In this document: positions 11,502 through 19,552 of the stretch, one piece after another
Layout: every line of letters starts with the position of its first letter
Numbering within the stretch: position 1 is the first letter of the stretch
Translations under genes and position numbers: made by a program
The notes under the pieces: model-generated
The model's database searches: none
What the model was told of the DNA's origin: nothing
What the model saw: the letters and a program-made list of their open reading frames with translations, nothing else
NCBI GenBank assembly: GCA_037128175.1
Contig: JBAXWY010000005.1
Location: forward strand, 1-64,000
DNA: 64,000 nt
Direction: 5' to 3'
Origin: Methanothrix sp.
GTDB lineage: Archaea > Halobacteriota > Methanosarcinia > Methanotrichales > Methanotrichaceae

Positions 11502-14500
11502 ATGACATGTGCATATCTAAGGCGCTGGAAATATATCCCATCTGCAATTCACAGTAGATCAGTGATTGCTTTGCAAAGGTCCTTTTCCATCCCGTCCCTG
11601 GTGCGTTCTTCTGCTATGCTGGCCTGTATGCTGCTGCTATTCCTTCCCTATTCTGGGGCAGCTCAAGATAGTGCTGCCTACTGGTTGGAAAATGGCCAGG
11701 CTTCTCTCTTAAACGGCAGCTTTCCGCTAGCCATCGAAAGCTTTGACCGGGTCATAAAGATCGATCCGGAGAATGCATCTGCCTGGGGCGGCAAAGGCAC
11801 TGCCCTCTCCCGGCTGGGCCGTTACAAGATGGCCGAGCTGTGCTTCAATTATGCCCTGGGAAAAGATGACAAAAATGCCCAGCTCTGGCTGGAGGACGGC
11901 AGGGCCAAAGAGCTGGCCGGTGAGTGGGGCGAAGCCCGGCAGAGCTACGAGCGGGCCCTGGGCTTGCAGGCAAACCTGGCCGAGGCGTGGCTTGGCAAGG
12001 CCAATGCATCTCTTGCCCTGGAAAGCTATGATGAGGCACTGCAAAGCTTCAAGAACGCCTCCCTTTACGGCAGGACAGATGCCGGCAAGGCGGGCCAGGT
12101 TAGAGTGCTGCTGGCTCACAGTTCGGCTCTTTTGAAGGAAGGCAAATTTGAGGCGGCTTATAATAGTAGCAATGCGGCTCTTGCCATTGATCCTCAAAAT
12201 ATCCGGGCGCTGATGCTAAAGGGAGACGCTTTGAACAGGCTGGGCCGATTTGAGGCGGCTCTGGCCTGCTATGACGAGATCCTGGCCGGCAGTTCATCTG
12301 ATGAGATGGGCAAGGAGGAAAAGGTGGGCAAGGAGGGCAAGGCCCTGGCTCTGGCAGGCCTGGGCGAAAAAGCGCTGGCCGCTGGAAACGTCTCCCAGGC
12401 ACTTGAAAATTTCAGGGAAGCCTCCCGCTTTGCACCGCAAAACGATGTGGCAGTGTCCGGTTTGGTCAGGGCTCTGACTGTCAAAGGTGATCAGCTTTTG
12501 CGCGACGGTCTCTTCTCAGAGGCTCTCAAGAGTTACGAAACCGCCCTTGTCCTTTTACCTTTGGACCCGGGCGCACTGGCCGGAAAAGAGAAGGCATCAG
12601 CTGAACGTACCGTCAGTATGGAGAAGGTCGAATCGGGGAACGCTTCCCTGCAAAATGTTGGGCAGAACTCAGAATTCTCCCATTATTTTGAGCTGGCAAA
12701 AAACCAGAGCAGGAACGGCTCGTATTCTCTGGCTTTAGAGAGCCTCAACAAATCCCTTGAGCTTGATGCCAGCCGGTCAGAAGCCTGGCTGCTCAAAGGA
12801 GAGATGCTCGCCCGCCTGGGCAGGCAATCCGAGGCACTCGATTCACTGGATCGGGCAATAGAAATCAATCAGTCCAGCCTCCCTGCCCTGGCATTAAAAG
12901 GACAGATCCTGTCCATGACAGGGAAATATAGAATGGCCGGGCTATTTTTCGACTCTGCCCTGCGTCTGGACCCAAAGAACATCGCCCTGTGGAATGATAT
13001 GGCGCGGGTGCAAGAGAAGCTGCAAAACGATAAAGGCGCCCTGCAAAGCTACAACAAGGCATTAAAGCTGGATGATAATAATACAGAGACTCTGCTTGGC
13101 AAAGGCAGTCTCTTGTTGGAAAACGCAAAGTACCAAGAGGCAGTGCAATGTTTTTCCCTGGTATTCGAGAAGGAAAAAGGAAATGTAGCCGCCTTGCGGG
13201 GCATGGGCGATGCAAAGCTTGCTCTCCTTGAATACGGTACCGCGTTAGAGTACTACGAGGCAGCACTTGTGCAAAACTCCAGCGATCTGGCATCAATGCT
13301 TGGAAAGGCTGAGGCACTTTATGCCCGACAGGACTACAACTCCTCTCGGCTGTCATTTTCTCAGGCTCTGAAAATTGATCCCCATGATCTTCGGGCATTG
13401 CTGGGCAATGGATACAGCTTCCTTCTGCTGCATGATTATCCCTTTGCCCTGCAAAGCTTTACCAGTGCTCTGGCCCAGGATTCAAAAAGCGTCCCTGCCC
13501 TGCTGGGAAAAGGAGAGGCCCTCCATCAACTGGGTGAGAAAGTGCTGGCCCTGCAGTGCTATGATCAGGCTCTTTTCCTGGAGCCGGATAATACTGTAGC
13601 ATTGCTTGGTAAAGGAGATGTGCTCTTGGATCAAAACGATCTGACCGGCGCAATGCTGGCCTATGGCCGCGTCCTCGCTCTGGAGCCCGGCAACGTGCGG
13701 GCAATGCTGGGCAGGGGAGACGCTTTCCAGCAAAATGGCCTCCCTGATAAGGCATTGCCACTGTACGAAAAAGTTATTGAAATTGACCGGCAAAATATTC
13801 GGGCATTACTGGGAGAAGCCGGAATTCAATATTCAATGGCGGACTGCAAATCAGCTCTGCATTCGTATGACCAGATCCTCTCACTGGATGAAAATAACGC
13901 CGCCGCCTGGGCAGGGCGCGGCAATGCACAGCTCTGCGGCAAGGATGTTGATCTCGCCCGGCAAAGCTACCAGCGGGCTCTTGCCATCCAGCCGAAAAGC
14001 GTGGCTGCTCTCCTGGGCATGGGTGACGTGCTTTACGAAAGGGGCAACAACGATGATGCCCTTCACTATTACGAGCAGGCTACAGCATTTGATCCCAGCG
14101 CACGCGGCTACCGGGGGCAGGGCAATGTATTCGCAGCCAATGGTGAGTACAACAGATCTTTGCCTCTCTTTGATAGATCCCTGAGCCTGAACCCATCTGA
14201 TGTCGATGCATTGCTAGGCAAGGGCCTGGCGCTGGCAGCTCTGGGCAACAGCTCTCTTGCCATAAAATGTTTCCAAGAGATCGTATCCGTAAATCCGGGA
14301 GACTATGCTGCCTGGTCCAATCTGGGAAGCATGCAGGCCTCTATTGGCCGGTACGATGAGGCTGCCGAGAGCCTGAAAAAGGCATGCCGGGCAGATTCAT
14401 CTCATGAGGATGTCTGGTATAATCTGGGCCAGGTGTACTACTCTTTGGGTCGCTACAGCCAATCGGCAGATGCTTTCCGGAATGCGACCCGGTTAAACTC

Positions 14501-14783
14501 GTCAGATGCAGCCGCCTGGATGGAACTGGGCCTGGCGCAAAATCAGAGTGGAAAGCTTGATGAGGCTTTGCAGAGCTTTGAGAACGCTTCCTTGCTGCAG
14601 CCGCAAAATATTGGTGCCCAATACGACAAGGGCCTGACATTGGTGGCCCAAAACAGATACCAAGAAGCTCTTCGTGCCTTTGAAAGAGTTTTAGTGATGG
14701 ATGCAGAGAATTCAAACGCATTGTATGCCATCAATCTAACCGAGTCACGCCTCAGCGAAACCAGCCCAAATCGAGGTGCATAA
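11502..14783 (+). CDS. Large secreted tetratricopeptide-repeat protein
   Basis: More than 20 TPR repeats (AW..KG..L...G...EA...YD.AL..DP); signal peptide ending GAA-QD; the true start is probably downstream of 11502. Confidence 0.9.
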   Translation: MTCAYLRRWKYIPSAIHSRSVIALQRSFSIPSLVRSSAMLACMLLLFLPYSGAAQDSAAYWLENGQASLLNGSFPLAIESFDRVIKIDPENASAWGGKGTALSRLGRYKMAELCFNYALGKDDKNAQLWLEDGRAKELAGEWGEARQSYERALGLQANLAEAWLGKANASLALESYDEALQSFKNASLYGRTDAGKAGQVRVLLAHSSALLKEGKFEAAYNSSNAALAIDPQNIRALMLKGDALNRLGRFEAALACYDEILAGSSSDEMGKEEKVGKEGKALALAGLGEKALAAGNVSQALENFREASRFAPQNDVAVSGLVRALTVKGDQLLRDGLFSEALKSYETALVLLPLDPGALAGKEKASAERTVSMEKVESGNASLQNVGQNSEFSHYFELAKNQSRNGSYSLALESLNKSLELDASRSEAWLLKGEMLARLGRQSEALDSLDRAIEINQSSLPALALKGQILSMTGKYRMAGLFFDSALRLDPKNIALWNDMARVQEKLQNDKGALQSYNKALKLDDNNTETLLGKGSLLLENAKYQEAVQCFSLVFEKEKGNVAALRGMGDAKLALLEYGTALEYYEAALVQNSSDLASMLGKAEALYARQDYNSSRLSFSQALKIDPHDLRALLGNGYSFLLLHDYPFALQSFTSALAQDSKSVPALLGKGEALHQLGEKVLALQCYDQALFLEPDNTVALLGKGDVLLDQNDLTGAMLAYGRVLALEPGNVRAMLGRGDAFQQNGLPDKALPLYEKVIEIDRQNIRALLGEAGIQYSMADCKSALHSYDQILSLDENNAAAWAGRGNAQLCGKDVDLARQSYQRALAIQPKSVAALLGMGDVLYERGNNDDALHYYEQATAFDPSARGYRGQGNVFAANGEYNRSLPLFDRSLSLNPSDVDALLGKGLALAALGNSSLAIKCFQEIVSVNPGDYAAWSNLGSMQASIGRYDEAAESLKKACRADSSHEDVWYNLGQVYYSLGRYSQSADAFRNATRLNSSDAAAWMELGLAQNQSGKLDEALQSFENASLLQPQNIGAQYDKGLTLVAQNRYQEALRAFERVLVMDAENSNALYAINLTESRLSETSPNRGA

Positions 14784-14883
14784 AAAATCTAGAGCAGAGG
14801 AGCCGGACCGGAAATCTATGGCAAAGAATGTATAAATGGTGGTGGGAAAGATCCATTAGATATTTTCCGATCTGGCTATTTTT

Positions 14884-15342
14884 TCATCTGCTTTCTATTC
14901 TCTTTTTCTCATAGCTTTGATAATTATGCTGCGATATCGTTTCCTGCTCGATGATCTCCATCAATCTATACTGCCGGTTATTTCTATTCCCTCTCTTATC
15001 CAGCAGACCGTCGTGATTCATGCGGGATAGATAGGTTGAGACTGTGGAGAGCTTTATATCATCGGCTACGGTCTCATATCGCTCTCTTAATTCCTGGGTT
15101 GTGAACCAGGCATTGGTAAACTCATGTCGGATGAAGCTTTCCAGTCGGTCCATGAGCGTTCCGCTGCTATAATCACGAGCAGTTGTGGCTGATGCAATGC
15201 TCTCCCCTCTGCCCTCAAAGACACCGGAAGCTGACAGAAAGCCAATGATCCTGTCTCTTAAAGCCTCTCCATCCATGTTTTGCGACTCAAACTCATGGGA
15301 GGATTTAAGGCTCTTGTCTTCTATCTCTATCCGGATCCTCAT
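14884..15342 (-). CDS. Winged-helix DNA-binding protein, putative regulator
   Basis: WFTTQELRERYE...IKLSTVSTYLSRMNHDGLLDKRGNRNNRQYRL wHTH pattern; short beta-rich N-domain. Confidence 0.75.
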   Translation of the reverse strand: MRIRIEIEDKSLKSSHEFESQNMDGEALRDRIIGFLSASGVFEGRGESIASATTARDYSSGTLMDRLESFIRHEFTNAWFTTQELRERYETVADDIKLSTVSTYLSRMNHDGLLDKRGNRNNRQYRLMEIIEQETISQHNYQSYEKKRIESR

Positions 15343-16160
15343 TTTAAATCCCCTTCAATCATCTACAGGATATTATCTTTAAAGAAGGAAGGAATATGCG
15401 TTGCATAGAGGAAGCTGCATCCCGACAGGAGACAAAGCCGACATTTTCTGTCATTGCAGCATTTTTAGGCAGCCAGGACCTCTCCAGGTTCATCTGCAGC
15501 ATAAACAATTTGATGTGCCCTCTCATAATTTTCCCCTCTTCATAGCCAATAACTTTTATTCTCGTGCCATCCCCAATTTTCGACAGGACTGTGAAAGACA
15601 TTACTTCCACAGCCCTGTCGCCAACAATTCGTATCAGATCCCTTCTCAGCCGTCCCCTTTTGATCCTCATGGTCGTCCCTTTCCGACAACGAGGATTTCA
15701 CCGGCCAAGCAATTCATCGTCTGCATCAGGCCTGAGCTATTTTGTCGTCCCTTTCCGACAGTGAACAGTCTGTAGACAGATGCATTGCATCCAGATCCGA
15801 TACGATACTCCCTTTCGCTACCCCTTGTGCCATCTATGCAAGAAAGTGTATTGCTGTGAAGCATTTCGCTGGATACCGAAAATGCCATTTAAGGCTTCGA
15901 TTTCCCCCTTCATTGCTACCCCTCATGCCATCCCTTACAGTGACGTTATGCTTTCACAAAGGCGAACATTTTCCAGACGATACAACTCTTCCACAATTGT
16001 GTGGAATAAATAGAGCCGATACATCAGATTAATCCACCCGATACGCTCCCCTTACTGCACTGATATATTGCCAAGGTTCATCCATCCCCTCAGATGAATA
16101 AGCCCTCTTTAGCCATCCTATCTCGATGTATTCAGACAGGTTGTCTGGCCATTTTGGCAC
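15343..16160 (-). ncRNA. Candidate long structured leader/ncRNA with ~16 AGGG(G)A motifs
   Basis: Motifs are strand-specific; GTCG-GAAAGGGA-CGAC hairpin occurs twice; a 17-bp stem has G.U pairs on the minus strand; BRE/TATA upstream. Confidence 0.55.
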
Positions 16161-16180
16161 ACTATTAACCTGTGTTTTGA

Positions 16181-16197
16181 GATATATAAACCTTTCC
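16181..16197 (-). promoter_or_regulatory. Archaeal BRE + TATA promoter
   Basis: The minus strand reads GGAAAGG-TTTATATATC, giving a TSS expected near 16160. Confidence 0.65.
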
Positions 16198-16742
16198 AAT
16201 AGTTGGTAGTTGTGGTTAATAGCTTAAAACTCATATTTAAAGTTATTTTTTGAAATAAAGCCCTAATAGTATTCAGAATAGTATTTCACAAGGTATGCTT
16301 AAGACAGGGAAAATGCATTATAATGTGTTGTGAAAAGAATTTTCGGGCGAATACTATCATAATAATAGCTATCATTAGGCCCTATGTCTATGCGCGGAGG
16401 ACATAATACCCCTGTGAAACCATTTCACAACGACCAACCGATGCGGAAATTATGGGAAAATTGCCCGGAAATCCGCCCTATTCTCAAAAAACATTGTGAA
16501 TTAATGCGCGCGAAGTTGCCGCACAACATGCCCAGAAATTTAAATAAAGGAAAATCAAAATGATTTAAGACGCTTGACGAAGTTCGAAATATTCTTCTAC
16601 AAGCCAGTCGCCGACCTCCTTAAGATACCTGCGCTTGCGTTCATCTTCGGCAATTAATTGAAAAACCTCAGAAAGATCTTCATCCATTGGACACGTGTTA
16701 TCCACTTACGGCATTTAAACTTATCGAAAGGTCGTTAGAACC

Positions 16743-17528
16743 TCATTTTTGCGCGTTTCCTCTTGCCAGGATCATCGCCACGCAGTAAGGCTCTCTGGTT
16801 CTTTTTAGAGGCCCGGCGTGTATAGGGTGGTCTCCGCAGATGATGAATAATGTCTCGTCATTTGCCGTTCTTGTGATCTCACCTATGCCGCGATCAATAA
16901 GCAAAGCCGCCTCTCTTATACCTTCCAGACCCTGGCCCAGATGAATGCTCTTATCAATTCCTATGAAGTAGGAGACAAGAAGCCTGGGCCTCTCTAAAAG
17001 AGCCTGGCAGGTCATGCGGCAAGCCTCCCTGTCGAAGTCTCGCAAAGGGATGCTGTCCGGTATGCCGTGCACTATCTCAATCATCCCCTGGTAAACGTCG
17101 GCCCCATTTTGCTCCATTATCACCGCGCACTTTTGGCCTGACATGGCTGCTATCTCCGGCAAGCTCTTGATGCGGGACTCTTTAGCGCTGGCCTTATCGA
17201 AAATTCCGTGGTGCTCCGGCAACAGTCCGCATAGGATGCTGGCGATGGCCGGAGTGGTGTGGTTGGAGACGGCGGTTATGCAGAAGAGCTGCCCCGCAAT
17301 GCTCAAAGCTCTCATGTTCTCAAGAGTTGGCAAGAGCCACATCAATAAATCATAGCCCAGGCTGTCGATAATGATGAGCGCGACATTTTTGCAGCCCGAG
17401 GCTACTGCAAAATCAATGGGACGGCCGTCTTGTTTAGGAAGCTGCAGCCCCAGGATAAGAGCTGCCGTGGGCGCGATGTCGAGCTGGCTGATTGGCGGCA
17501 TGGTCTCTTGAGCTGTCATTATGATCAA
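16743..17528 (-). CDS. Alkaline phosphatase/phosphodiesterase superfamily protein
   Basis: Motifs IIIDSLG, TTPAIASILCG..PEHHG, ID..IH and ICGDH. Confidence 0.75.
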   Translation of the reverse strand: MIIMTAQETMPPISQLDIAPTAALILGLQLPKQDGRPIDFAVASGCKNVALIIIDSLGYDLLMWLLPTLENMRALSIAGQLFCITAVSNHTTPAIASILCGLLPEHHGIFDKASAKESRIKSLPEIAAMSGQKCAVIMEQNGADVYQGMIEIVHGIPDSIPLRDFDREACRMTCQALLERPRLLVSYFIGIDKSIHLGQGLEGIREAALLIDRGIGEITRTANDETLFIICGDHPIHAGPLKRTREPYCVAMILARGNAQK

Positions 17529-17644
17529 TGCAGTCTTTCTCAGCCATATAATAATGCCCTGCCCGAAGACGGCCCGATGACGGGTAGCAATATTCCGCAG
17601 GCTTAAATAAGGATTAAGATAAACGAGATCCAGGCAATGAAAAC

Positions 17645-18070
17645 ATGAAAAAAAGAGACTCTCTTCCGCTTCAGCTCAATTCCGCTCCGCTACCTCTAGC
17701 CTTACTGGTTTTGGCTATTACAATGGTGATGGCCGGGGCATATGCCGCCTCTACAAATATGGATATTGATTACAGCCATAACGTTGTAGGTACTGGGACG
17801 GTAATGACCGATTTTAAGATGGGTTCCGACGAGAGTACGCTGGCCACAGGAAGGGTGCGGGGAAGCGGCGAGGTTATGAACAAATATGTCTTTGTCAGCA
17901 ACAACTCCGAGAACGTCTCCATCCTAGACCAGTTCCTTTTTACAAAGGTACCGATCACCCACGATATTACTATTCGCGACTATCCTCAGATGACCAAAAT
18001 CCCAGGAAGCTTCCGTCTGCTGGGGACGACCTGGGCCGCAAAAATAAACCTCACCCCGAAGAATGATTAG
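17645..18070 (+). CDS. Secreted hypothetical protein
   Basis: Signal peptide followed by a beta-rich body. Confidence 0.65.
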   Translation: MKKRDSLPLQLNSAPLPLALLVLAITMVMAGAYAASTNMDIDYSHNVVGTGTVMTDFKMGSDESTLATGRVRGSGEVMNKYVFVSNNSENVSILDQFLFTKVPITHDITIRDYPQMTKIPGSFRLLGTTWAAKINLTPKND

Positions 18071-18124
18071 TTTCGCTGTGCACGCCAAAGACCTATCAGA
18101 CACTCCATCAAAGATACCATAGAT

Positions 18125-19552
18125 ATGCAAGACACCCAAGAGATCGCCGGGAAGTTTCGCGAGCTGTGCGAGTTATGCAAGAGCCCTGCTGATGTGATCA
18201 AGACGAAAAAGAATCTTCTCGTCGTCTCTCACGTGGATGCAGATGGGCTCACGGCAGCGGCAATTGTCTGCACCGCCCTGGAGAGGCGCGGCCTGGACTT
18301 CCAGCCCAAATTTTTCCGCCAGCTTGATGAGGCTGCTTTAGACGAGGTTGCAGATCATGGCGCCGATCTGGTCATTTTTACGGATCTTGGCAGCGCCATG
18401 ATTCAGCAGATATGCGACCATCGCCTTCTGGCCGTTGTTGCCGATCATCACAAGCCCGTTGCCTGTGAGGCCCGTCCCATAGCCCACATCAATCCCCATC
18501 TGGTAGGCGCTGATGGGGCAACACAGCTCTCCGGCAGCGGAACCGCTTTCCTATTGGCAAGGGCGTTGGCGTCCACTCCGGGCAGCAATGATGATCTGGC
18601 AGCAATAGCTGTGGTGGGGGCAGTGGGAGATTTGCAGGACATGGCACACGGCCAGATGGTAGGCATCAACCGTCACATCCTGGAGATCGGATCCAATGCA
18701 GGGGCCTTATCCTTCTCTCGCGACATCAAATTCTTTGGCAGACAGACCCGTCCCGTCTACAAGATGCTGGAGTACTCCCAGGACCCCTACCTGCCCGGCC
18801 TTTCTGGCAATGAGGACGCTTGCATCGCCTTTCTCAAAGAGATCGGCATACGCCTGAGCGGAGAGAAGTGGCGGCGCTGGATCGATTTATCTCAGGAGGA
18901 GAAGGCCGGCTTTGTCACCGCGGTTCTTAGGAAGGGTCTACGAAGCGGCATCTCCAATGTCAAGCTGGAGCGCTTGATCGGCGAGGTCTACATCCTTTTA
19001 GGCGAGCAGGAGGGCACGGAGCTTCGGGACGCCAGCGAGTATTCGACTCTTCTCAATGCTACCGCCCGTTACGGTCATGCCGGGGTGGGCCTCTCGGTCT
19101 GCATGGGCGACAGGGACAAAGCCTTTAGCGAGGCGCAGAGGTTGCTGGGCCAACACCGCCAGAACCTGGTAAACGGCCTGAAGCTGGTTCGCGTGAAAGG
19201 CATCACTACCCTGAAAAGCATCCAGTACTTTGATGCAGGAGATGCCATTTTGGACACCATCGTAGGCATCGTGGCCGGCATGAGCTTTCAGATGGGAGAT
19301 CGCTCCCGGCCCATCCTGGCCTTTGCCCTGACCGGGAAAGGGGAGCTAAAAGTCTCGGCGCGAGGCACACAGGACCTGGTCCGCTCAGGCCTTGATCTGG
19401 CCGATGCCCTGTCGCGCTGCGCCCATGCCGTTGGAGGCGTGGGCGGGGGGCACAACGTCGCTGCCGGAGCGACCATTCCGCCCCAGGCCAAAGAGGAATT
19501 TCTGACGCTCATGGATGCAACGGTAGGCCAGCAACTTATCAGAGAAAAATGA
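18125..19552 (+). CDS. recJ: DHH-family ssDNA exonuclease, archaeal RecJ/GAN-like
   Basis: Motifs SHVDADG, FTDLGS, ADHH, GAVGD and DHHA1 GGGHNVAAGA. Confidence 0.9.
   Translation: MQDTQEIAGKFRELCELCKSPADVIKTKKNLLVVSHVDADGLTAAAIVCTALERRGLDFQPKFFRQLDEAALDEVADHGADLVIFTDLGSAMIQQICDHRLLAVVADHHKPVACEARPIAHINPHLVGADGATQLSGSGTAFLLARALASTPGSNDDLAAIAVVGAVGDLQDMAHGQMVGINRHILEIGSNAGALSFSRDIKFFGRQTRPVYKMLEYSQDPYLPGLSGNEDACIAFLKEIGIRLSGEKWRRWIDLSQEEKAGFVTAVLRKGLRSGISNVKLERLIGEVYILLGEQEGTELRDASEYSTLLNATARYGHAGVGLSVCMGDRDKAFSEAQRLLGQHRQNLVNGLKLVRVKGITTLKSIQYFDAGDAILDTIVGIVAGMSFQMGDRSRPILAFALTGKGELKVSARGTQDLVRSGLDLADALSRCAHAVGGVGGGHNVAAGATIPPQAKEEFLTLMDATVGQQLIREK

What the first reader, a model, noticed from the sequence alone, without database searches (positions are those of the whole stretch)
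15343..16197. ~820-nt structured RNA with ~16 AGGG(G)A motifs upstream of a wHTH regulator: CsrB-like sponge architecture in an archaeon
Seen: a BRE/TATA (GGAAAGG-TTTATATA, minus strand, ~16197-16183) precedes a tract with no convincing protein. The minus strand carries about 16 purine motifs such as AAAGAGGG, GAGGGGAT, AAGGGGAG, AAGGGAT, GAGGGGTA, AAGGGGGA, AAGGGGTA, GAAAGGGA (x3), AAAGGGGA, GAAGGGAT and AGAGGGGA. I find essentially no GGG runs on the plus strand here. Several motifs sit in hairpin loops: TTCATCT-GAGGGGAT-GGATGAA (~16077-16098), and GTCG-GAAAGGGA-CGAC twice (17-nt exact duplicate at 15672-15688 and 15744-15760, the first extended by ATCCTC/GAGGAT). A 17-bp stem (15581-15597 with 15604-15620) has two non-Watson-Crick pairs. 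Both are G.U on the minus strand but A.C on the plus strand, which argues for selection on an RNA. The last motif (GAAGGGGAT) sits where the RBS of the wHTH gene 14884-15342 should be. Knowledge: bacterial CsrB/RsmY/RsmZ sRNAs present many GGA loops to titrate CsrA, and I do not know a CsrA/CsrB system in methanogens. Inference: this may be a multivalent RNA sponge or giant 5' leader for an unknown RNA-binding protein, which would also control translation of the downstream regulator.
Basis: partly seen in the sequence, partly recalled or inferred. Interest (0 to 1): 0.85.

Follow-up and report, generated by a model that had tools for sequence, protein, structure and literature searches.

The report
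G-rich structured leader RNA, Methanothrix
This is a transcribed, folded, non-coding leader RNA of about 635 bases in front of a tiny gene and a regulator gene, and it carries copies of motifs from a nearly invariant short element elsewhere in the genome, so it may be an archaeal RNA decoy.

Summary

Two corrections:
- The last 168 nt (15526-15359) is a frame-conserved 55-codon small ORF, so the non-coding leader runs from about 16162 to 15527.
- G-run/C-run asymmetry alone is not rare in this genome.

Evidence that the leader is real:
- DNA homologues occur in 31 of 36 same-genus genomes. G-rich upstream regions occur in other Methanotrichaceae genera but not in 10 loci of other families.
- It shows no codon periodicity.
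- Helices covary: 85% of cells pair, against 31-50% for slid controls.
- Metatranscriptome contigs cover 14809-16147 and nothing upstream of the promoter.
- No Rfam family matches, and no CsrA gene is found.

New result: the leader's invariant motifs copy a 63-nt stem-loop between trm1 and npdG, found in 103 of 105 family genomes. Each of 26 leaders shares 11-20 exact nt with it.

Best reading (0.4): a multivalent G-rich decoy or target that pairs with the C-rich transcript of that element. A protein sponge is the main rival (0.22).

The scan did not note this before on other DNA.

The parts
16351..16379 (-). Conserved upstream block with GATAG repeats. It resembles the promoter-proximal part of the ultraconserved element locus on contig C1.
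   Evidence: Near-invariant in the 20-sequence alignment. The similarity to C1 was seen by eye and was not scored.
16283..16336 (-). Inverted TTTTCACAA / TTGTGAAAT boxes upstream of the promoter; probably operator DNA.
   Evidence: TTTTCACA is invariant and GTGAA nearly invariant in 20 sequences. Also noted by earlier finding e1-6366954.
16183..16197 (-). BRE/TATA promoter (GGAAAGG + TTTATATA).
   Evidence: GAAAG[G/T]TTTATATA is kept in all 20 aligned relatives. A like box is kept in other genera.
15527..16162 (-). Non-coding structured G-rich leader RNA. The start near 16160-16163 is predicted from the TATA spacing.
   Evidence: No codon periodicity, and 100 of 581 gap runs are 3n. MFE -215 kcal/mol, z -6.0. 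RNA contigs reach 16147, where an adapter follows.
16077..16098 (-). 5' hairpin with a GAGGGGAU loop; the best-conserved part of the leader.
   Evidence: Alignment. Helix 16106-16092/16087-16073 is 97% paired. A profile of it hits C9 and C25 in the same genome at E 7e-4 and 0.018.
15961..16038 (-). Helix 16038-16032 with 15967-15961, enclosing a variable insert.
   Evidence: 7 bp, 93% paired, 5 pairs with compensatory changes in 31 leaders.
15880..15945 (-). Module M1: AAGGGAUGGCAU..GGGGUAGCAAUGAAGGGGG, a copy of the ultraconserved element.
   Evidence: Covariance model R1 of the element hits it at E 2.1e-5. It shares 16 exact nt with the element.
15806..15836 (-). Module M2: GAUGGCAC-AAGGG-GUAGC-GAAAGGGAGU.
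   Evidence: Invariant core. Duplex window -40.6 kcal/mol with the element's C strand.
15629..15805 (-). Central domain closed by the 12-bp long-range helix 15805-15794 / 15640-15629.
   Evidence: 7 of 12 pairs change on both sides.
15743..15760 (-). Hairpin UGUCG-GAAAGGGA-CGACA.
   Evidence: 90% of cells paired, 2 pairs changed on both sides.
15663..15696 (-). 13-bp hairpin with the same GAAAGGGA loop.
   Evidence: 6 of its 9 outer pairs change on both sides.
15581..15620 (-). 17-bp stem whose loop takes variable inserts in relatives.
   Evidence: 11 aligned pairs, 87% paired, 5 compensatory.
15561..15574 (-). Module M3: GGGGAUGGCACGAG, invariant. It is complementary to the leader's own 5' GUGUGCCA and identical to the element's 5' flank.
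   Evidence: GGGATGGCAC is invariant. The candidate helix 16162-16155/15569-15562 never varies, so covariation cannot test it.
15359..15526 (-). Small ORF of 55 codons, with ribosome-binding site UGAAGAGGGG at 15542-15533.
   Evidence: No Pfam family.
14884..15342 (-). Gene for a 152-aa winged-helix regulator, with ribosome-binding site UGAAGGGGA at 15357-15349.
   Evidence: Substitutions by codon position 75/52/196. The AlphaFold model has a wHTH at residues 63-127, and Foldseek finds MarR/Fur/ArsR-type folds.
14809..14883 (-). 3' untranslated end of the transcript.
   Evidence: RNA contigs of two studies (X1, X5) both begin at 14809. This is only a weak hint.

Best explanation
The region is the roughly 635-nt non-coding, highly folded, G-rich and C-poor 5' leader of one mRNA. 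That mRNA goes on to encode a 55-codon small ORF and a 152-aa winged-helix regulator.

The leader is specific to the family Methanotrichaceae. It is built from modules: two or three diverged copies of a 63-nt stem-loop element, plus extra hairpins whose 7-9-nt loops show sub-motifs of that element (GAAAGGGA in this genus, UUGAAGGG in others). The intact element is nearly invariant and lies between trm1 and an npdG-like gene.

Most likely mechanism (inferred, not shown): the intact element is transcribed from its C-rich strand, as the leader of a small membrane protein / npdG operon or as a small RNA. The G-rich modules and loops of this leader then base-pair with that C-rich loop at several sites. 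The leader would be a multivalent decoy or target. It would either titrate the C-rich RNA or have its own small ORF and regulator translated in step with it.

Shown: transcription of the region, non-coding status, RNA structure, conservation, and the motif identity between the two loci.
Inferred: which strand of the element is made, and that the two RNAs meet.
For: Leader is real and non-coding:
- DNA homologues occur in 31 of 36 same-genus genomes.
- There is no codon periodicity, and only 100 of 581 gap runs are 3n. The wHTH gene gives 37 of 37.

Structure:
- On a sequence-only alignment of 26 leaders, 30 tested pairs are 85.3% paired, against 30.8-49.6% when slid.
- 15 pairs change on both sides, and 0 of 500 shuffles reach the covariation score.

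Transcription:
- Contigs of 4 metatranscriptome runs from 3 studies cover 14809-16147.
- No contig of the four runs covers about 16150-16600, although 16150-16400 was part of the query.

Link to the element:
- The element is found in 103 of 105 family genomes and 15 of 16 genera, and in 73 of 74 family genomes with model R1.
- In 5 near-complete genomes its 20-nt core, with up to 3 mismatches, occurs at the element in all five. In 3 of them it also occurs at a site in or beside the wHTH leader, and one other 3-mismatch site was left unassigned.
- All 26 of 26 leader/element pairs from one genome share 11-20 exact nt (median 17). Two controls give a median of 8.

C strand of the element:
- The flanking genes are on that strand.
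- A BRE/TATA-like AAAAC-TTAATAAA box lies upstream in at least 12 of 15 loci viewed.
- A paralogue in genus g10 has a like box 23 nt before its stem.
- The C strand folds better than shuffles (z -2.67 and -4.62), while the G strand does not (z +0.65 and -0.63).
- Predicted duplexes of leader windows with the C strand reach -50.4 (M1), -40.6 (M2) and -38.4 kcal/mol (M3).
Against: - No strand-specific data exist here, and contigs cannot show strand.
- Wobble-pair evidence on the element is mixed. One inner pair and the terminal pair favour the G strand. The variable hairpin favours the G strand in 2 loci and the C strand in 2.
- The invariance of the element is not explained by pairing with the more variable leader copies.
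- The whole-leader duplex z-score is modest (-4.6, against mononucleotide shuffles), and duplexfold ignores the leader's own folding.
- Identity of motifs fits a shared protein partner equally well.
- Only about a quarter of the RAAGGG motifs sit in clear hairpin loops.
Confidence: 0.4

Rival explanations
1. Protein sponge or autoregulatory platform. An RNA-binding protein recognises RAAGGG motifs. The intact element, read as G-rich RNA, is its main site. The leader offers many decoy sites and two sites at the ribosome-binding sites of the small ORF and the regulator.
For: - Loops are constant over variable stems. L058 has about 8-10 such hairpins with different stems.
- Motifs are enriched in loops: 13.8% against 1.5% for stems of 7 bp or more.
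- The intact element carries three RAAGGG motifs.
- G.U pairs at two positions of the element favour the G strand.
- In this genome both ORFs have UGAAG(A)GGGG ribosome-binding sites.
Against: - No candidate protein was found. CsrA is not found in the genome.
- The 55-aa product has no family, and its gene is missing in two genera that keep the leader.
- The regulator's fold matches DNA-binding wHTH proteins.
- No promoter at a fixed distance is seen on the element's G strand, and that strand folds no better than shuffles.
- The similarity of ribosome-binding sites to loops is not kept in other genera.
Confidence: 0.22
2. Purely cis-acting sensor. The leader folds alone and controls translation of the small ORF and regulator in response to a ligand, temperature or ribosome loading, with no trans partner. 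One route is alternative pairing of the 5' GUGCCA with one of three UGGCAC motifs.
For: - The fold is strong and conserved.
- There is invariant complementarity between 16162-16155 and 15569-15562.
- A frame-conserved upstream ORF has a conserved N-terminus but a free C-terminus, as in regulatory leader peptides.
Against: - Copy number and order of modules vary widely between genera, and L060 has three tandem repeats. That is unlike a single ligand pocket.
- No Rfam riboswitch matches.
- It does not explain why the motifs match a second, unlinked, ultraconserved locus.
Confidence: 0.15
3. DNA-level element. The shared 20-bp core and the GATAG and TTCACA boxes are operators of the winged-helix protein. 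That protein would then repress its own gene from sites inside the transcribed region and act on the npdG promoter region.
For: - The core occurs at the element in all 5 genomes searched and at a site in or beside the wHTH leader in 3 of them, with one other 3-mismatch site left unassigned. One site lies next to a TATA-like box.
- The downstream gene encodes a DNA-binding fold.
- Upstream boxes are invariant.
Against: - Helices spanning up to 170 nt covary, and stems carry G.U pairs on the transcribed strand only.
- Loops are constant over free stems.
- A 63-bp block at 84-100% identity across genera is far longer than a usual operator.
Confidence: 0.08
4. Decayed or unannotated protein-coding sequence across the whole tract.
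For: ORFs of 73 aa (15667-15888) and 103 aa (15359-15670) exist in the window. G-rich strands are common in coding DNA.
Against: - Upstream of 15526 there is no periodicity (chi-square p 0.11-0.99), and gap lengths are mostly not 3n.
- There are no Pfam hits.
- Those ORFs are not kept in relatives.
Confidence: 0.02

Closest known systems
CsrB / RsmY / RsmZ protein-sponge RNAs of bacteria (properties recalled, not read here)
   Same: Many short G-rich motifs, some in hairpin loops over variable stems. Copy number varies between lineages. In this genome the motif also lies at ribosome-binding sites.
   Different: No Rfam match and no CsrA gene. The motif is RAAGGG in 7-9-nt loops rather than GGA. 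The RNA is an mRNA leader, not a free sRNA. It occurs in an archaeal family only.
Sponge RNAs that pair with C-rich-loop small RNAs, such as RosA with RoxS/RsaE in Firmicutes (recalled, not read here)
   Same: A G-rich RNA with several sites complementary to a conserved C-rich loop of another RNA. In this genome the G-rich motifs also lie at the ribosome-binding sites of the small ORF and the wHTH gene.
   Different: Transcription of the C-rich partner is not shown here. The decoy is the leader of a regulator mRNA. There is no sequence relation. The C-rich element is far more conserved, at 84-100% over 63 nt across genera.
Long structured leaders and large non-coding RNAs catalogued in Rfam 15 (riboswitch arrays, T-box, OLE, GOLLD, ROOL, HEARO)
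   Same: Several hundred nucleotides long, with covarying helices and a location upstream of genes.
   Different: No family matched at E up to 1 on the window stretch or E up to 5 on six relatives. The modular, copy-number-variable build is unlike a single compact fold.
Trans-acting small RNAs of Methanosarcina (recalled)
   Same: Same class of archaea. Regulation by pairing near ribosome-binding sites is known there.
   Different: Those are short free sRNAs. Model R1 of the element found only 2 weak matches in 76 genomes outside the family.

Membership tests
CsrB/RsmY/RsmZ sponge RNAs | Match to the curated covariance models | tested here: not met
   cmscan of 13000-19000 at E up to 1 gave only a chance miRNA hit. 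Six relatives at E up to 5 gave none.
CsrB/RsmY/RsmZ sponge RNAs | CsrA/RsmA partner protein encoded in the genome | tested here: not met
   PF02599 gave 0 matches in the 99.8% complete genome. Controls rang in E. coli, B. subtilis and T. maritima.
CsrB/RsmY/RsmZ sponge RNAs | Many GGA motifs presented in hairpin loops | tested here: inconclusive
   The motif is RAAGGG. 88 of 327 instances (27%) sit in loops of stems of 5 bp or more, against 8.5% in the control. That is 1-6 such hairpins per leader, and none in 2 of 48 leaders.
CsrB/RsmY/RsmZ sponge RNAs | Free small RNA with its own terminator | tested here: not met
   No run of 5 or more T lies between 16160 and 15527. One RNA contig spans leader, small ORF and regulator gene.
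Sponge / small-RNA pair by base-pairing | Extended complementarity between the two RNAs, kept across species | tested here: met
   11-20 exact nt in 26 of 26 genome pairs, against a median of 8 in controls. In the five genomes the core matched the element in all five and a site in or beside the wHTH leader in three. One other 3-mismatch site was left unassigned.
Sponge / small-RNA pair by base-pairing | Partner transcribed from the complementary (C-rich) strand | tested here: inconclusive
   A promoter-like box, gene orientation and folding z-scores favour the C strand. Wobble pairs are mixed. There are no strand-specific reads.
Structured non-coding RNA (general) | Base pairs kept by compensatory change on an alignment not fitted to the structure | tested here: met
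   15 of 30 pairs change on both sides, 85.3% of cells are paired, and 0 of 500 shuffles reach the score.
Protein-coding gene | Third-position excess of substitutions and 3n gaps | tested here: not met
   For the leader there is no periodicity, and 100 of 581 gap runs are 3n. The small ORF keeps its frame (5 of 5) but shows no third-position excess (56/88/66).

The most novel reading that the evidence does not exclude
Methanotrichaceae carry a two-part RNA circuit not described in archaea. One part is a nearly invariant C-rich-loop RNA tied to an F420/NADP oxidoreductase operon. The other is this long G-rich leader, which pairs with it at several sites and so acts as an RNA sponge. The sponge is itself the mRNA of a transcription regulator, linking redox-cofactor metabolism to a regulon in the main acetate-using methanogens.
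Probability: 0.3. Interest if true: 0.85.

Novelty: new variant of a known kind. Interest (0 to 1): 0.74.

Why it matters
[quoted passage not shown] Very little is known about how it regulates its genes. My four literature searches found no paper on non-coding RNAs of this genus and none on RNA sponges in methanogens (listings and abstracts only).

A family-wide, expressed, structured leader, together with a 63-nt element kept at 84-100% identity across genera, gives two concrete and testable RNA parts. If they interact, or share a protein, this would be an archaeal counterpart of bacterial decoy RNAs. It would also point to the function of a winged-helix protein family found across the class Methanosarcinia.

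Tried and rejected
- Rfam: nothing beyond chance hits in the window stretch, six relatives' leaders, or the C1 and C9 loci.
- Repeat family in the own genome: the leader is single-copy. Only short modules recur, on C1, C9 and C25.
- Ribosome-binding-site mimicry as the general logic: TGAAG(A)GGG occurs 131 times in the genome. By my own estimate, not computed in any call, about 135 are expected, so there is no genome-wide enrichment. The genome's usual Shine-Dalgarno words are GGAGG and GAGGT. The likeness of ribosome-binding sites to loops is lost in other genera.
- Complementarity of the element's loop to rRNA: the rRNA genes are not assembled in this genome. In the five near-complete genomes searched, the pattern matched the element, sites in or beside the wHTH leader in three of them, and one other 3-mismatch site that I did not assign.
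- G-quadruplex reading: considered by eye only. Spacers between G-runs are mostly longer than 7 nt, and I did not pursue it.
- Origin-of-replication reading, prompted by a weak Cdc6_C hit (E 7e-4, below cut-off): dropped, because all motifs share one orientation and the region is transcribed and paired.
- Depth of RNA contigs cannot rank leader against coding part, so I draw nothing from it. Stretches without cover outside 14809-16147 are only a weak hint.
- The 152-aa protein: a PDB profile search gave only E of about 0.5 to IdeR and MarR recognition helices. Foldseek gave generic wHTH folds at E 2e-3 or weaker. Neither suggests RNA binding.
- Earlier scan notes: nothing on this RNA in other genomes.
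- Supplementary files of papers were not opened, and no claim here depends on them.
Full report
**What is in the sequence.** On the minus strand, GGAAAGG plus TTTATATA lies at 16197-16183.
- the GAGGGGAU-loop hairpin at 16098-16077;
- the 17-nt duplicate at 15760-15744 and 15688-15672;
- the 17-bp stem 15620-15604 with 15597-15581, with two G.U pairs that would be A.C on the other strand.

G-run asymmetry alone is not special. At least 25 other 600-nt windows of the genome show a difference of 16 or more.

**Coding or not.** A 20-sequence alignment of relatives gives a clear split.

| Region | Substitutions by codon position | Gap runs that are 3n |
|---|---|---|
| wHTH gene 15342-14884 | 75 / 52 / 196 | 37 of 37 |
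| Leader 16160-15540 | no periodicity (p 0.11-0.99) | 100 of 581 |
| Small ORF 15526-15359 | 56 / 88 / 66 | 5 of 5 |

So the leader is not coding. The last 168 nt of the finding is different. It is an ORF of 55 codons with a G-rich ribosome-binding site 6 nt upstream. Its start codon varies among ATG, GTG and TTG. Its N-terminus, MRG(H/Q)IKLF, is conserved in 28 of the 29 relatives where my pattern found the wHTH start. Across genera the N-terminal codons differ mainly at synonymous sites, while the C-terminus is free. The lack of third-position excess means the frame matters more than most of the product. The ORF has no Pfam family. It is absent in two genera that keep the leader (L060, L061).

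**Conservation.**
- The stretch is single-copy in its genome.
- DNA search found it in 31 of 36 genomes of the same genus and in 0 of 24 genomes of other genera of the class.
- Source names of the wHTH homologues place the genus as Methanothrix.
- A six-frame search with the wHTH protein found full-length homologues in 90 of 104 genomes of the family. In other families only the C-terminal wHTH part aligned in most matches, inside longer frames. ORF translation of 10 such loci shows that they share the MKIRLEIE-type N-terminus.
- In 20 loci from other genera of the family, most of the 1-kb upstream regions are again rich in G-runs and poor in C-runs. Examples are 35/4, 28/3 and 20/0. The asymmetry is weaker in genus g12, at 26/12 and 19/13.
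- In 10 loci from other families it is absent, for example 6/8, 10/7 and 4/5.
- The BRE/TATA box and the first 40 nt after it are kept across the family.

**Structure.**
- The minus strand folds to -215 kcal/mol (z -6.0). The plus strand folds to -158 kcal/mol (z -5.5).
- RNAalifold on 31 leaders gave helices with compensatory pairs: 16038-16032/15967-15961 (5 pairs), 15805-15797/15637-15629 (7), 15696-15684/15675-15663 (8) and 15617-15606/15595-15584 (5).
- I then counted 30 named pairs on a plain MAFFT alignment of 26 leaders. I dropped 5 of the 31 (L027, L031, L033, L034, L039) because the domain was short or missing in them.
- In that count 85.3% of cells pair, against 30.8-49.6% when the partner is slid. 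15 pairs change on both sides, in 48 cells. 0 of 500 shuffles reach the covariation score.
- The tool warns that related sequences can beat shuffles without any structure. The slid controls are therefore the stronger test.

**Transcription.**
- Twenty metatranscriptome runs from 12 studies hold part of the stretch.
- Contigs of four runs from three studies cover 14809-16147. One contig ends at 16147 followed by adapter. Two runs from different studies start a contig at 14809. One 997-nt contig spans 14870-15867.
- No contig of the four runs covers about 16150-16600, although 16150-16400 was in the query.
- This fits a start about 23 nt after the TATA box. That spacing is a rule from general knowledge of archaeal promoters.
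- Contigs cannot show strand or level, and the runs were chosen because they hold this stretch.

**Architecture.**
- The leaders are modular. Hairpins with different stems carry the same loop. The loop is GAAAGGGA in this genus and (U)UGAAGGG in others. L058 has about 8-10 such hairpins.
- Between them lie GGGAUGGCAC and G(A/G)GUAGCAAUGAAGGGG motifs.
- L060 has three tandem repeats of about 120 nt.
- Over 48 leaders there are 327 RAAGGG motifs. 27% sit in loops of stems of 5 bp or more (flank-shuffled control 8.5%). 13.8% sit in loops of stems of 7 bp or more (control 1.5%).
- So several motifs are in loops, but most are not.

**The second locus.**
- A profile of module M1 hit one other place in the genome, on contig C1, at E 8.5e-6.
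- That place is a 63-nt stem-loop between trm1 (PF02005, E 1.3e-93) and a 126-aa membrane protein plus an npdG-like F420/NADP oxidoreductase.
- It was found in 41 of 41 genus genomes and in 103 of 105 family genomes from 15 of 16 genera. Its core is 84-100% identical across genera.
- It has a 9-bp stem, a 3-bp inner stem with compensatory changes, and an invariant 31-nt loop.
- A covariance model of it found 73 of 74 family genomes and only 2 weak hits in 76 genomes of other families. In many genomes the next-best hit is the wHTH leader.
- In five near-complete genomes the 20-nt core, with up to 3 mismatches, occurs at the element in all five. In three of them it also occurs at a site in or beside the wHTH leader. 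One other 3-mismatch site (G134) was left unassigned.
- In all 26 of 26 genome pairs the leader shares 11-20 exact nt with the element's G-rich strand (median 17). Controls give a median of 8.
- No Rfam family matches the element.

**Which strand of the element is RNA?**

For the C-rich strand:
- All flanking genes lie on it.
- A start codon follows 18-38 nt after the element in at least 6 genera.
- An AAAAC-TTAATAAA box lies upstream in at least 12 of 15 loci viewed.
- A paralogue in genus g10, seen in 7 of 7 genomes at weak to good E-values, has a like box 23 nt before its stem, a U-run after it, and a wholly different but complementary stem.
- The C strand folds better than shuffles (z -2.67 and -4.62), unlike the G strand (z +0.65 and -0.63).

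For the G-rich strand:
- There are G.U pairs at one inner and one terminal position.

The variable hairpin is split two loci to two. I judge the C strand more likely, but it is not shown.

**Mechanism.** If the C strand is made, the leader's modules can pair with its loop. Predicted duplexes are -50.4 kcal/mol at M1, -40.6 at M2 and -38.4 at M3. The GAAAGGGA and UGAAGGG loops match sub-sites of the same loop. The leader would then be a multi-site decoy or target of that RNA. If instead the G strand is the active form, both loci display the same motifs to a protein. No CsrA gene is present, and I found no candidate protein. A purely cis-acting switch and a DNA-operator reading remain possible but fit fewer facts.

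**The regulator.** The model (mean pLDDT 70.5) has a beta-hairpin and helix at the N-terminus and a wHTH at residues 63-127. It resembles MarR, Fur and ArsR DNA-binding domains only weakly.

**Verdict.** The finding is real and the observation largely correct. It is a new RNA family of a kind known from bacteria.

Noticed in passing
G000 contig C1:34232-34338 (L082:1501-1607), outside the window: A 63-nt stem-loop with a 31-nt invariant loop lies between trm1 and a membrane-protein/npdG-like operon. It is present in 103 of 105 family genomes at 84-100% identity across genera and has no Rfam match. It is probably an undescribed RNA in its own right.
   Followed up: yes
L161:1214-1308 (genome G063, genus g10): A paralogue of that element with a different 11-bp stem and a like loop. 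On the C strand it has a TATA-like box 23 nt upstream and a U-run after it, so it looks like a small RNA gene. Model R1 hits were seen in 7 of 7 g10 genomes.
   Followed up: partly
G000 contig C9:48827-48900 (L094), outside the window: A copy of the leader's 5' hairpin plus AAUGAAGGGGG, just before a membrane-protein ORF. An upstream CUUUCCC could mask the G-run (chance-level SAM-III hit, E 2.9). DNA matched in 28 of 41 genus genomes.
   Followed up: partly
G000 contig C25:31114-31143, outside the window: Another copy of the UUCAUCU-UGAGGGGA-UGGAUGAA hairpin in an AT-rich spacer (nhmmer E 0.018).
   Followed up: no
window 16351-16379, minus strand: A GATAG-repeat block upstream of the leader promoter resembles the promoter-proximal part of the C1 element locus. 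It may be a shared operator of the two loci.
   Followed up: no
window 15549-15556: Most relatives carry an extra hairpin here (GAUCGGAUC...GAUCCGAUC, with a GGAAGGGGA-type loop). It is missing in this genome and in four close ones.
   Followed up: partly
window 16565-16705, minus strand: A 46-aa ORF (..EDERKRRYLKE..WLVEEY..) upstream of the locus is also present at the same place in other genera (L061, L064). There a small Cys-rich ORF follows it.
   Followed up: no
window 14884-15342 and loci L072-L081: The wHTH protein belongs to a family found across the class. It has an MKIRLEIE-type N-terminal beta-hairpin, a variable linker and a wHTH. It has no Pfam family over cut-off and no known function.
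   Followed up: partly
L060 (genus g16), leader: Three near-identical tandem repeats of about 120 nt, each ending in GCAAUGAAGGGGGG. This suggests recent amplification of a module.
   Followed up: no
whole genome G000: No rRNA signature motifs were found, so the rRNA operons seem not to be assembled in this 98-contig genome.
   Followed up: no
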